A stretch of 64,000 nt of DNA from Saccostrea echinata (taxonomy: Eukaryota). The translations under genes and the position numbers were made by a program. The notes under the pieces are model-generated. The model was not told the DNA's origin. It searched no databases and saw only the letters and a list, made by a program, of their open reading frames with translations. How positions within the stretch are numbered: position 1 is the stretch's first letter; every line of letters starts with the position of its first letter. Positions 39,620 through 54,576 of this stretch are shown piece after piece. The stretch spans positions 8,990,001 to 9,054,000 of the forward strand of contig NW_026889755.1 of assembly GCF_033153115.1 (NCBI RefSeq), read 5' to 3'.

Positions 39620-40170
39620 AGTAGTATGATTTTGCTAACACTAGACCACCTTGAGGGCGTGCAGTGTGGTAAAGTGGGGTGGGTTACGTATTTAGCCATG
39701 GGTTACATATAGGACCAGGTGTGACCAAGATTATTGATATGATGTAATTATGTAGTGGTGTTTACAATCTCCACTGCCTTGGGAGGTGTGGTGAAGTTGG
39801 TTGTGAGGGTTACAGACTTGATCTACATTTTTGGTATTGAAAGGTGTTGTTAATTATGCAATGCATTAATCAGATATAAAATAAGACGAAATCGAAAATG
39901 GTGATCTACCTGATCATTGCATTAACTCCATAGTCTAAATAAAATTGTTAAAAGGTCAGTCGATATGATTTCTGATAGTATTCATGAAACAAGTGGAGAT
40001 CTTAAAGATGAAAGAGATAATTTTGTTCTCGAGGAAATACTAAATGTCGAAGATGAGGTTGATTTGAAACGAAACACTAAGCTAACAAAGTGGATTTTTG
40101 TCTCATTGACTTTGTTTTTAACTGCAACAACTCTTGGGATCACTGTAAATTTTAACCACTGCACGGATAT
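39620..40170 (+). repeat. Polinton left TIR
   Basis: Inverted match to 53985-54576; the outer ~135 bp are closely similar and the inner part more diverged. Confidence 0.85.
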
Positions 40171-40531
40171 CCGGAACGTTGCTGAATTCAAATCCTTAAA
40201 AAATGCTGCTCTAACTGAAAAGACTAAGTGTTTATTCAATGTAACGTTTCCATTACCTGAAAAGTATAGAGTCATTGTGTGTTCATACCAACATAACACA
40301 AGATTTAACATTGGATATCTTATTTATACAAACACCACACAATGGATTTCTCTGAATAAACGTCAATGGCAATATCTTGAGCAAATTCTACCAATAATTA
40401 AGAAAGTCGTCAGAAGTGCATACCAAAAGAATGGAGGACGAAACAGAAATTCATCAAGTTTTAAAACTAAGACTGATTATGGAGTCACAGTTTTGGCAAA
40501 AAACTGTTTAACTATGGATGTTCAAAACTAA
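39965..40531 (+). CDS. Polinton accessory protein: TM helix plus PC4/Sub1-like domain
   Basis: Hydrophobic WIFVSLTLFLTATTLGITV; FPLPEKYRVIVCSYQHNTRFNIG..ISLNKRQWQYLEQILPII fits the PC4 pattern by eye. Confidence 0.55.
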   Translation: MISDSIHETSGDLKDERDNFVLEEILNVEDEVDLKRNTKLTKWIFVSLTLFLTATTLGITVNFNHCTDIRNVAEFKSLKNAALTEKTKCLFNVTFPLPEKYRVIVCSYQHNTRFNIGYLIYTNTTQWISLNKRQWQYLEQILPIIKKVVRSAYQKNGGRNRNSSSFKTKTDYGVTVLAKNCLTMDVQN

Positions 40532-40884
40532 TTGTAAGAAAGATACTGGAAGAAACCACTAGAAATTGTGTTGGATGTCAAGTTGATCACCCAAGTCAGA
40601 CACGACATGAATGCTTATTTATAACTGTTTCTGAACAGATTGCTATGTATTTTGATATTGCCTTTAATCAAATTTCTAAAGAAGATGTTCAAATATGGAT
40701 AGCATCAAAAGTCTACACTTTTCAAAATCCAAGAAGAGTAGAAGATTGGATGCAAGAAGTGGTAAAAGATTACTATCTCATTTTACAAAAAAACCAAGAT
40801 GATGATGAAAAGAAACAGATAAAAAGACATGGTAAGCACATCAACTCTTGTTTAATAATAATAGTTTCAAAATGTTGTTCTTAA
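40431..40884 (+). pseudogene. Polinton accessory protein with CxGCxxxHPSQxxHxC motif
   Basis: MEDETEIH...FWQK, a +1 shift in the A-run at 40498-40503, then LFNYGC...NCVGCQVDHPSQTRHECL continuing into ORF 40645-40884. Confidence 0.65.
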
Positions 40885-42013
40885 TGTTTTCATTCTTCTT
40901 TCATTTATCTACAGGTTTCAAGAGAAGATGAACACTTACGGAACGTATATTACAATTTAGGAAAAGCTGGTGCCTTTCAAAGTGCAACAAAAATATATAA
41001 ATCCTTTAAAAATAATGGTTCAACAATTATCATCCTACCAGTCATTCGGAAATGGTTGAGATCGAAGGACGATTATTCACTACAAAAAACAGCTAGAAGA
41101 AAATTTAATCGATCCTCTGTTGCGACAACAGGTCTTTACGATTTGTACGATGCAGATTTAGCACAGGTTGATGAATTGTCCAAATACAATGGTGGTGTAA
41201 ACTATTTACTTTTTGTGATAGATGTTTTCAATCGATATTTGTACATTGAACCACTTTTGAATAAAACGGGAAGCAGAGTGAAAACAGCTCTGAAGTCTAT
41301 ATTTGAAAGAGGAGTCAAGCCAAAGCATCTTCGCACTGATGGTGGCTCTGAATTTCAAAACCGAATTGTTAATGAATATCTAAAAAAAGAAAATATTTAT
41401 CACCAAGTAGTTCTAAATGAAACAAAAGCTAACTATGCTGAAAGATGTATTCGAACAATAAATTCAATGCTGTATCGTTATTTTACAAAATACAGAACCT
41501 ATAAATACATTAATGTTTTACAACATTTTGTGAAGACGTACAATGCAACTCTCGTATGTCTTTGAATGGTATAGCACCCAAAGATGTGAATAGCTCTAAC
41601 GAAAATCAAATATTTGCAGCTTTGTATCTCAAAAAAAAAAAATTAAAAACACGTCAAGAAGTTTAAACTGAATGTTGGTGATTTAGTTCGAATTAGTCAT
41701 TTAAAGAAACCATTCATGCGTGGATATGAAGAACAATTTACGACTGAAATTTTCAAAATATCATACCGTTTTAGACAAAGAGGACACCCAATGTATAAAT
41801 TAGTTGACTTTTTAAACGAAACGGTGAAAGGAAATTTTTATGAACCGGAGTTGCAACATGTAGAAAAAGATAAAGAGAGTTTGTGGTTGATTGAAAAAAT
41901 TATTCGTCGGAGACAGCGACGAGGAAAAAAAGAAGTCTATGTCAAATTTGTCGGGTGGGATCATCGATTTTAACTCTTGGATATTGGAATCGGAGATAAA
42001 AAAATTATCTTAA
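40829..42013 (+). pseudogene. Polinton retroviral-like (rve) integrase with C-terminal chromodomain
   Basis: VYYNLGKAGAFQS, IRKWL, DADL, RTDGGSEF, AERCIRT, VGDLVRIS, GNFYEPELQ, IEKII..YVKFVGWD..NSW. Frameshifts near 41550, 41635 and 41970; the ATG is probably on a separate exon. Confidence 0.92.
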
Positions 42014-42034
42014 TCAATCTTTTTTTTTACAAAC

Positions 42035-51750: not shown

Positions 51751-53249
51751 TTTTCTTTTTTTTTTTATTAAAACAATGTGAAGTACTTAGTGACTTAACA
51801 AATATTTACATTTTTCAGTGCATTTTTAGAACAGGTGTGGAAATATATTGGTGTATTCATTCCATTGTTTTGTTATTTGTGTTCACTTTATGCAGGTAAA
51901 AGACATTGTAATATATTTGTTTTGTGTGTGTGTGTGTGTTTTTTTTTAATTTTGTCTAGGGAACAGTACCACATAAATATCATTGATGGTGTATTTTAAA
52001 TTAAAAAAAAGAAAGAAAGAAATTCACATTCCTTCTATTCAAACTTGCATGTAGTTGTAATACTGTGATGGTGTAAATATGTGATTGTCATCAGGATAAT
52101 TGTTTCAAAATTGTAAACTATGACATGTGTTATTATTTCTCTTACTTGTTTTAATTTTTTGTAGAATTTGAAAAAAGGGTTATATTTCCTTTCGTTATTA
52201 AAATATTATTGAAGTTTTTTTCCACTTAGTACTTGTTGGTCTTTTATATTTTCTTACATTAATTTTTGTTTGACATATTTTAAAGTAGTTGTATGTAAGA
52301 AAAGAGGAAAATCCAAAATCTTTATTCTTATTATTTATGCATTTCATCTTTTTTCTTTTTACCTTTTGAGAGTTAAATGATTCAAGGAAAATCCAAAAAA
52401 TATTTTTTTTTCTTTTCCTAAATTTTTGTTTTGTATTTCTTTGATAAGTATACAACAAGATATAATCGCATTAATATTTCAGAACCACTTGTGTTCTTCA
52501 CATTTCTTAAATAGTTAAATGAACATTTTAATTCTTTAACCCCCCTTTTTTTTCTTTTTTTCATTAAAATCAGGAATGTAGTATGAAATCATAGCTTTAA
52601 TTTTAGTTGTTATGCATATTAACAATTTTTGACAACATTGTCTCAAGTGAATTCCCCCCCCCCCCTTTTTTAAGTGGTTCGTACATAAACATGTAATGGC
52701 ATTCTTTTTCATTTCTAATTGTAAAAATTGGAGGGGTTTTTTTGTTTTTTTTTATTTATTTATTTTTATTTATTTATTTATTTTAAATTTACATCACAGG
52801 TGCATTTGTTGAATTTTAGTAGTTATGCATGTGAGCAGTATTGGAGAACATTGTCTCTATTTTTTAGTTTTACATGTACTACTTGATACTTGAAGCAATG
52901 TTTTAGTTTTTAGATTTTTTGAAAGATTTGAATAACTTTGAGTATGTGAGTGTTAGGTTGGGTGTGTTTGTGTGTGTTTTAATTTTACTTCAGGAGTTTA
53001 GTTTGTTGAAAGAATAGCTTTACTTGTAGTAGTTATACTGTTACATATAAACAGAATTAGACAATATTTTCTCGTATTTTAATTTTCTACAATACTTAGG
53101 TTGAGAATTTTTGTTTTTTTTCCAAAAGATTTTGATCACTTATCTCTGGTTTCTATTCAAAATTGTTTCAAATTGATGAAAAAATGTTCAAGAAGAAAAT
53201 AAAGAAAATGTGTATATACATGTAAAACAATAAATTCTTTGCACTTACC

Positions 53250-53420
53250 ATTCTTGACTTCTAAAACCAAAGTTTCAATCTTTATCCCTGGGTCATTGTC
53301 TTCTGTTAGGTCAATGAATGTGTTAGGCCCTTCTCTTTGGATTAGCTTGTACAACAGAATTTCACCATTTAAGGTGATTCTGACTTCAAAATCATCAATG
53401 ATGTCTATGCTAACAGACAT
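53250..53420 (-). CDS. First exon of an unknown Polinton accessory gene
   Basis: MSVSIDIIDDFEVRITLNGE...FIDLTED...EVKN|gtaagt (consensus donor); TATA-like sequence upstream. Confidence 0.4.
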
Positions 53421-53984
53421 TTTGGATGATGAATTTGAATTACTTTACTTGCAATTATATACAAAAGTGTCTTTAAGATCTCGGTATTACATGTAACATT
53501 CTGGATCAGTGCATGTTTGGTATTCAATATATGGGCTTCCTGTTAAATTTAACATAGGTTAAATAATTCCACAAAATAATAGAATGAATGCATGTTATTG
53601 TGAAGTGGTGAAATTATGTACAAAGTTCATTAAAAAGAATATATATATATATTTATTCATTTACCTGTAACATGCAAGATGCTTGTGGAACAGGTAATGT
53701 GGTTTCTGATAATATTTCAATATAATGATAGCTAGTTTTACACTCCTTCGTTTTTTTTTTTTTTATAAAACTGCTACATTAATCTGACAAATTTCCTATT
53801 GTAAATCATGCAGTGCATAAGTCAGTCAATAAAGATGAATAGGAAACGATTAAATTTTTTTTTTTTTGCATATTCATGATATTATATAAATTAAATACTA
53901 GTAATTTAAAGTTAACATAACTCCATCAAGTGAAAAAATAAAATATCCTTCTGGATAGAGTATCAATTTCATGTTTTTCATTTT

Positions 53985-54576
53985 CCATATCCATATAGTG
54001 GTTAACATTTACATGAATCTAAGAGTTATTTCAGTTTTAAAAAAGTCAAAGAAACAAAAATCATCTTTGGTAAGTTAGTGCTTCATTTCAAATAAGGCTC
54101 ATCTTCTACATTAGGTTTTTCCTTGGGAATAAAATGATCTGTTTCATCTTTAACTTCTCTACTACTTTAAGAATATTATTAGAAATCATATTGACCATTC
54201 TGTTGACAATTTTACATGTATTTGGACTATTAAATTTGAGATAATCAAGGAAAAATTATTGATCAGGTATATCACCATATTTTGTTTTGTGTTATTTTAT
54301 ATCTGAATAATGCATCACATAATTAACAACACCTTGCAATATCAATAATCTAGATCATAATTGTGTAATCCCCATAACTTCACCACTCATATTGTCAATC
54401 TTGCTCGCACATCGTCATACACCTAACAGATGGCTATACCTACAGAACACCTACATAATTATATCATATCAATAATCTTGGTCACACCTGGTCCTACATG
54501 TAACCCATGGCTATACACGTAACCCACCACACTCCACGCCGTAAAGGTGGTCTAGTGTTAGCAAAATCATACTACT
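53985..54576 (-). repeat. Polinton right TIR
   Basis: Inverted copy of 39620-40170, including a decayed copy of the start of ORF 39965. Confidence 0.85.

What the first reader, a model, noticed from the sequence alone, without database searches (positions are those of the whole stretch)
39620..54576. Polinton with both ends and a virion module but no pPolB or packaging ATPase
Seen: both TIRs, a 6-bp TSD, integrase, penton, core, MCP and protease. No ORF or remnant with pPolB motifs or a Walker A FtsK/A32 ATPase is visible on either strand. Established: these two genes are normally core Polinton genes. Inference: either a local deletion (probably at the insertion starting ~44620) or a helper-dependent satellite lineage that keeps capsid and integrase but borrows replication and packaging.
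Basis: partly seen in the sequence, partly recalled or inferred. Interest (0 to 1): 0.75.

Follow-up and report, generated by a model that had tools for sequence, protein, structure and literature searches.

The report
Broken Polinton with a local deletion
This is an ordinary broken copy of a Polinton (a virus-like jumping element): a near-identical sister copy on the same contig still has the polymerase and packaging genes, and here a truncated host transposon stands in place of 5.7 kb that held them, likely after an insertion and a deletion, so it is a fossil and not a helper-dependent satellite.

Summary
In detail: a 14,957-bp Polinton with AGTAGT/ACTACT ends, a 5-of-6 target duplication, integrase, capsid and protease genes, and no trace of pPolB or ATPase. 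A sister copy 516 kb away (96% identical left arm) carries the ATPase and pPolB directly after the protease. In the window, the 5' 1.5 kb of a high-copy 2.2-kb CACTA-like transposon interrupts the protease at 44623; its 3' end and 5,726 bp of Polinton are missing, and Polinton sequence resumes 31 bp past the sister's pPolB stop. Both junctions occur once in the assembly. The genes that were kept are themselves broken: integrase and major capsid are frameshifted, the penton has two stops, the protease is cut short. 98 of 99 other capsid loci checked have an ATPase nearby. Verdict: a decayed copy with a one-off deletion; low interest.

The parts
39614..39619 (.). Left copy of the 6-bp target-site duplication (5 of 6 bases match the right copy)
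39620..40170 (+). Left terminal inverted repeat; well conserved over the first ~140 bp, weaker (about 70-85%) inverted similarity to ~550 bp
39926..40531 (+). ORF of unknown function, shared with the sister copy (95% aa); frameshifted near its end
   Evidence: no Pfam hit
40398..40884 (+). Second conserved ORF of unknown function, found upstream of the integrase in many Polintons of this genome; frameshifted here
40885..42013 (+). Retroviral-like (rve) integrase with C-terminal chromodomain; broken by several frameshifts
42035..42454 (+). Likely minor capsid protein (penton); two in-frame stops
   Evidence: identity from position and a weak Atlas lead
42433..42870 (+).
42907..44215 (+). Double jelly-roll major capsid protein; frameshifted near its 5' end
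44218..44622 (+). Adenain-type protease; similarity to the sister ends at 44622, the C-terminal ~20 residues are lost
44623..46157 (+). 5' part (1,535 bp) of a high-copy ~2.2-kb non-coding CACTA-like DNA transposon; its 3' ~650 bp and right end are missing
46158..46164 (.). Deletion junction: 5,726 bp of the sister (protease end, ATPase, two small ORFs, whole pPolB) have no counterpart; Polinton sequence resumes at 46164
46164..54576 (.). Right arm of the Polinton, collinear with two sister copies (93% and 85%), AT-rich with short minus-strand ORFs
47196..47488 (+). tRNA-Ser-derived SINE-like insertion, absent from both sisters at this site
48151..48495 (-). Small ORF shared with the sister's right arm; no family hit
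48784..49078 (+). Second SINE-like insertion of the same family, absent from the sisters at this site
50842..51754 (.). Insertion holding a 120-156-bp tandem repeat, absent from both sisters
53997..54576 (-). Right terminal inverted repeat (best conserved 54451-54576)
54577..54582 (.). Right copy of the target-site duplication

Best explanation
This is a decayed copy of an ordinary Polinton family whose ATPase and pPolB are present in a sister copy and are replaced here by a truncated host transposon, likely through a transposon insertion followed by a one-off deletion in the chromosome. Shown: the sister has the order integrase, penton, basic protein, major capsid, protease, ATPase, two small ORFs, pPolB, right arm; the window follows it up to 44622, then carries the 5' 1,535 bp of a CACTA-like element with an intact left end, then resumes at 46164, 31 bp past the sister's pPolB stop; 5,726 bp of Polinton and about 650 bp of the transposon are absent. 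Inferred: a ~17.6-kb Polinton integrated by its rve integrase (6-bp duplication); the transposon landed near the end of the protease gene; a later deletion with one break inside the transposon and one just past pPolB removed both genes at once because they are neighbours; frameshifts, stops, two SINEs and a tandem-repeat insertion built up without selection. The copy is inferred to make no functional capsid or integrase.
For: Sister B (G000:C6:9545617-9563184): left arm 96.2% identical over 4,951 aligned bases, 6-of-6 target duplication, ATPase (Pox_A32 E 7.3e-4, below the curated cut-off; Walker A variant) and pPolB (exo II and motifs A, B, C found; Atlas top hit DNA_pol_B_2 cluster at 0.97) right after the protease. 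Copy C (C6:9956014-9975691), the closest match to the window's right arm (93.4%), has a broken pPolB directly upstream of the same right-arm start. The insert has 39 other loci among the 40 candidates scored of 664; 15 of 15 fetched copies are ~2.15-2.2 kb with CAC...GTG ends and a 3-bp duplication. Each junction is found once in 923 Mb at up to 2 mismatches; DNA searches with the protease end and the right-arm start found only the window plus B, and the window plus B and C, as close full-length matches. Retained genes are broken. 98 of 99 other capsid loci have an ATPase nearby.
Against: The right break falls only 31 bp past the pPolB stop, so the loss looks neat; one event cannot be tested for chance. 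The right arm is only 85.4% identical to sister B while the left is 96.2%, and the two ends differ by a 10-base gap, which leaves room for a mosaic. One assembly only; the genome search scores the best candidates only and says counts are lower bounds. The order insertion-then-deletion is inferred, not observed.
Confidence: 0.9

Rival explanations
1. Chimera of two neighbouring Polinton insertions: a left arm from a B-like copy and a right arm from a C-like copy were joined by a larger deletion at the transposon. Still a local rearrangement of fossils.
For: Left arm 96.2% to B but right arm 85.4% to B and 93.4% to C; the left end aligns without a gap to copy D (115 of 130) and the right end without a gap to B (119 of 130), while the two ends differ by a 10-base gap.
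Against: Flanking 6-mers match at 5 of 6 bases, expected by chance well under 1 time in 100 (my estimate). B and C also differ by 7-17% in the right arm while their polymerase DNA is 95-98% alike, so faster change of the right arm explains the gap. C has no left arm to compare.
Confidence: 0.05
2. One-step replacement: a double-strand break in the Polinton was repaired by copying the 5' part of the transposon from elsewhere, so insertion and loss were a single event.
For: Only a 5' fragment of the transposon is present and no right-hand 3-bp duplication can be checked.
Against: The fragment begins exactly at the transposon's first base, as a true insertion would; templated filler has no reason to start there.
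Confidence: 0.03
3. Helper-dependent satellite lineage: a derivative that keeps capsid and integrase, borrows polymerase and packaging ATPase from complete Polintons, and has spread in that form.
For: Both ends and a target duplication are present, and many related Polintons in the genome could supply the missing proteins. The deletion removes both genes whole.
Against: Single-copy junctions; a host transposon stump at the break; integrase, penton, major capsid and protease broken; 98 of 99 other capsid loci have an ATPase nearby, and the exception has a truncated capsid gene and no protease hit either.
Confidence: 0.02

Closest known systems
Polintons / Mavericks (class Polintoviricetes)
   Same: AGTAGT//ACTACT ends and 6-bp target duplication as described for Mavericks (PMC8097293, passages); rve integrase, double jelly-roll major capsid, adenain-type protease; the family (sister B) also has ATPase and pPolB.
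   Different: This copy has lost ATPase and pPolB and its other core genes are broken.
Degraded Maverick fossils of animal genomes
   Same: PMC8097293 (passages) reports 96% of 3,511 vertebrate loci as eroded by stops, frameshifts and large insertions, and names bird loci that lack the protease or the ATPase; PMC4028283 (passages) found the ATPase in only 83% of 72 representative Polintons.
   Different: No difference in kind; here the cause of the loss can be mapped to the base.
Tlr elements and Polinton-like viruses without pPolB
   Same: Capsid module without pPolB (PMC4028283, passages; PMC5499653, search listing only).
   Different: Tlr keeps the ATPase and replaces pPolB with an SF1 helicase; here nothing coding replaces the lost genes and the state is single-copy.
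CACTA/EnSpm (CMC) non-autonomous DNA transposon (the insert)
   Same: CAC...GTG ends, subterminal repeats, 3-bp duplication in 15 of 15 copies. The superfamily traits are recalled, not taken from a call.
   Different: No transposase was sought, so the superfamily is assigned from ends and duplication length alone; the window copy is truncated.

Membership tests
Polinton/Maverick | Terminal inverted repeats with AGTAGT//ACTACT ends | tested here: met
Polinton/Maverick | 6-bp target-site duplication | tested here: met
   5 of 6 in the window; 6 of 6 in sister B
Polinton/Maverick | rve-family integrase | tested here: met
   Pfam rve E 1.8e-10; frameshifted
Polinton/Maverick | Double jelly-roll major capsid protein | tested here: met
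   Model pLDDT 90.6; Foldseek E 4.4e-15 to iridovirus capsid, also Sputnik, PBCV-1, mavirus
Polinton/Maverick | Penton (minor capsid protein) | tested here: inconclusive
   Position fits; Atlas lead to V18-19 in 19% of one cluster, recognition score below threshold; no Pfam or PHROG hit
Polinton/Maverick | Adenain-type protease | tested here: met
   Peptidase_C5 E 8.4e-4, below curated cut-off; truncated
Polinton/Maverick (this copy, as an autonomous element) | pPolB and A32-like ATPase in cis | tested here: not met
   Absent from the window copy; so it is not an autonomous Polinton, only a remnant of one
Polinton/Maverick (the family, via sister B) | pPolB and A32-like ATPase in cis | tested here: met
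   note Pfam, PHROGs and PDB sequence searches did not name the polymerase domain itself
Helper-dependent satellite lineage | The reduced form occurs at several independent sites | tested here: not met
   Each junction once
Helper-dependent satellite lineage | Retained capsid and integrase genes intact | tested here: not met
Helper-dependent satellite lineage | Mobilised in trans in cells | not testable with these tools
   No sequencing run held more than 7% of the sampled words
Polinton group 1 or 2 / pPolB1 or pPolB2 | Placement in a pPolB tree | not tested
   No tree built; the sister's pPolB has an endonuclease VII domain
CACTA/EnSpm (insert) | CAC...GTG ends and 2-3-bp duplication (recalled) | tested here: met
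   15 of 15 copies
CACTA/EnSpm (insert) | Cognate transposase in an autonomous partner | not tested
   Not sought

The most novel reading that the evidence does not exclude
The deletion arose in an earlier chromosomal copy, and the shortened element was then copied to this site in trans by complete Polintons, so that capsid-bearing Polintons without polymerase or ATPase can move as satellites in this animal; other copies would be in other individuals or missing from the assembly.
Probability: 0.02. Interest if true: 0.55.

Novelty: already known. Interest (0 to 1): 0.05.

Why it matters
As found, it matters little: most Polinton copies in animal genomes are broken fossils, and this one lost two neighbouring genes in one deletion. 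It is a clean caution for window-based scans: intact ends plus a missing core module do not imply a satellite until sister copies and junction copy number are checked. Had the satellite reading been true, it would have shown trans-complementation of replication and packaging among animal Polintons.

Tried and rejected
Motif scans and tblastn for degenerate pPolB or ATPase inside the element: only chance-level hits. Pfam, PHROGs and PDB sequence searches did not hit the polymerase core of the sister's pPolB; its identity rests on motifs and the Atlas. First attempts to find the transposon's right end failed because the fetched stretches were too short or the end motif was guessed wrongly; solved. 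Segmental duplication of the window and sister B was rejected: similarity stops at the element ends and the target duplications differ. Transposase-driven adjacent deletion was considered and judged unlikely because the right break lies inside the transposon, not at its end. Earlier findings of this scan: two look-ups, nothing returned. In the capsid-versus-ATPase tally 102 capsid rows were merged to 100 loci (two split pairs) and 116 of 150 ATPase rows were used (34 rows, mostly the long-ORF family noted in passing, left out); the 15-kb limit may count a neighbour's ATPase, and pPolB was not checked at most of these loci. Paper searches listed no paper whose title or abstract start describes an animal Polinton satellite lacking both genes; this is not proof of absence, and no supplements were read.
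Full report
Observation. The element runs from 39620 (AGTAGT) to 54576 (ACTACT), 14,957 bp, with flanking 6-mers that match at 5 of 6 bases. The two ends agree at 113 of 120 aligned bases in the first 130 bp, with one 10-base gap, and a weaker inverted similarity continues to about 550 bp. The left arm holds an rve integrase (E 1.8e-10) and an adenain-type protease (E 8.4e-4, below the curated cut-off). The capsid ORF has 236 relatives at E <= 0.001, many from bivalve genomes; its model (pLDDT 90.6) matches double jelly-roll capsids of an iridovirus, Sputnik, PBCV-1 and mavirus (best E 4.4e-15). 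The penton label is supported only by position and a weak Atlas lead; the 'core' label was not confirmed. No pPolB or ATPase remnant is present: motif scans gave three loose chance matches, and tblastn with the sister's own ATPase and the C-terminal 760 aa of its pPolB gave best E-values of 0.58 and 3.2 inside the element.

Sister copies. The window is G000:C6:8990001-9054000 of a 923-Mb assembly. Searches with the end, the capsid and the ATPase found five more pieces of the same family. Copy B (C6:9545617-9563184, 17,568 bp) has both ends (128 of 130 identical), a 6-of-6 target duplication and a left arm 96.2% identical to the window's. After its protease come an A32-like ATPase (Pox_A32 E 7.3e-4, below the curated cut-off), two small ORFs and a long polymerase frame with an endonuclease VII domain (E 2.3e-6), exo II and polymerase motifs A, B and C, and a top Atlas hit at 0.97 to a DNA_pol_B_2 cluster (47% of members). 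Pfam, PHROGs and PDB sequence searches did not name the polymerase core. Copy C (C6:9956014-9975691) lacks the left arm, is the best match to the window's right arm (93.4% against 85.4% for B) and has a broken pPolB directly upstream of the same right-arm start. Copies D (C32, left part), E (C5, right end) and F (C36, part of the ATPase, the small ORFs and the start of pPolB) are fragments broken at other places. Similarity between the window and B stops at the element ends, so they are separate insertions.

The break. The window follows B to 44622, about 20 codons before the protease stop. From 44623 to 46157 it carries the 5' part of a dispersed repeat: 39 other loci among the 40 candidates scored of 664, 35 of them over most of the length at 91-95% identity. 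All 15 copies fetched are about 2.15-2.2 kb long, begin CACAG, end TTGTG and have a 3-bp target duplication, which fits a non-autonomous CACTA-like DNA transposon (superfamily traits recalled). The window has the exact left end but lacks about 650 bp and the right end. Polinton sequence resumes at 46164, 31 bp past B's pPolB stop. The span of B with no counterpart is 5,726 bp: protease end, ATPase, two small ORFs and all of pPolB. Each junction, searched with up to 2 mismatches, occurs once in the assembly. The protease end matches closely only B, and the right-arm start over its full length only B and C.

Decay. Against B, the window's integrase has several frameshifts, the major capsid gene is frameshifted near its start, the penton has two stops and the protease is cut. 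The right arm carries two tRNA-Ser-derived SINE-like insertions and a 0.9-kb tandem-repeat insertion that neither B nor C has. Removing the four insertions and adding the missing span gives about 17.6 kb, the length of B (my arithmetic). A satellite that lives by its capsid and integrase would be expected to keep them; this copy has not.

Is there a satellite lineage elsewhere in the genome? Of 100 capsid loci listed (101 of 451 candidates scored), 85 had a listed ATPase within 15 kb (using 116 of 150 ATPase rows). Of the 15 left, one is the window, one had an ATPase, and 12 of the other 13 had one in a 10-kb stretch around the capsid gene; the last has a truncated capsid gene and no protease hit. 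So 98 of 99 other loci have an ATPase nearby. pPolB was checked over a wide span only at the 8 closest capsid loci: 7 had protein hits and the eighth a DNA match to the start of the gene.

Mechanism. Shown: gene order in B, the two junctions, the truncated transposon, single-copy junctions, broken genes. Inferred: integration of a complete Polinton, insertion of the transposon into the protease gene, then one deletion from inside the transposon to just past pPolB. Both genes went together because they are neighbours in this family. Rivals are a chimera of two copies (0.05), one-step repair with transposon filler (0.03) and a satellite lineage (0.02). Against my reading: the right break is neatly close to the pPolB stop; arm identities and the mismatch between the two ends leave room for a mosaic; only one assembly was seen and no public run covered the junction.

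Comparison with what is known. PMC8097293 (passages; section 5) gives the (AGT)2//(ACT)2 ends and 6-bp duplications, reports 96% of 3,511 vertebrate Maverick loci as degraded by stops, frameshifts and large insertions, and names bird loci lacking the protease or ATPase. PMC4028283 (passages) found the ATPase in 83% of 72 representative Polintons and describes Tlr elements, which lack pPolB but keep the ATPase and gain a helicase, unlike this copy. PMC10748475 (passages), PMC11131425 (passages) and PMC12451622 (passages) were read for background on pPolB classes, coral polintoviruses and taxonomy; no group assignment was made here. No supplements were read. This copy is a remnant of a Polinton, fails the test for an autonomous one, and fails both tests for a satellite lineage.

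Verdict. Real feature, ordinary cause. Novelty: already known. Interest 0.05.

Noticed in passing
L073:1618-7543 (G000:C54:25244618-25250543) and L074:1263-8642 (G000:C16:4930263-4937642): A multi-copy palindromic element: L074 is a 7.4-kb near-perfect palindrome (99.6%) and L073 has 2.2-kb arms at 99.8%; the two loci are 94-95% alike. Each arm encodes a ~570-aa protein with an A32-like ATPase domain and zinc-finger-like motifs, the two copies pointing outwards from the centre. Similar head-to-head ATPase pairs were listed at C54:43.2 Mb, C28:15.73 Mb and C27:11.76 Mb, and many more single long-ORF hits; no capsid, integrase or polymerase hit in the two 10-kb stretches. Unexplained and likely more interesting than the finding itself: a fold-back mobile element carrying a Polinton-type ATPase.
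   Followed up: partly
whole assembly G000, mainly contigs C5, C6, C33, C36: Very high Polinton load: 451 capsid candidates and 449 ATPase candidates, many with open frames, strongly clustered on a few contigs.
   Followed up: partly
L001:6726-7421: The sister's packaging ATPase has a Walker A starting with Ala instead of Gly, which a strict GxxxxGK[ST] scan would miss.
   Followed up: no
window 39819-40170 and 53997-54357: Beyond the conserved ~125-140-bp ends, both the window and sister B have a much more diverged (about 70-75%) inverted repeat reaching ~550 bp; on the left it overlaps the start of an ORF, and the right copy holds a remnant of that ORF.
   Followed up: partly
window 39620-39760 versus 54451-54576: The two ends resemble different family members (left like copy D, right like copy B), and the arms have different closest relatives; possible recombination between subfamilies.
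   Followed up: partly
L011:8685-8705 (G000:C6:9975691): The right end of copy C is followed within a few bases by another AGTAGT-like motif, perhaps a second Polinton end next to it.
   Followed up: no
L084, L085, L087: Other Polinton families in this genome have different gene orders, with the ATPase upstream of the integrase or on the opposite strand from the capsid block.
   Followed up: no
window 1860-2161, 27370-27459, 32120-32363, 47196-47488, 48784-49078: A ~300-bp tRNA-Ser-derived SINE-like family, 94-98% alike among several copies, dispersed through the window and other loci.
   Followed up: partly
window 5547-6473, 13641-17740, 15872-16342, 50892-51700, 61665-61952: Short arrays of 120-170-bp tandem repeats, typical of repeat-bearing mobile elements in bivalve genomes (label recalled).
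   Followed up: no
window 3704-4425, 19559-20841, 29400-29973, 34711-34851: Small inverted-repeat elements (MITE-like) and an 11/23-bp repeat-bearing element outside the Polinton.
   Followed up: no
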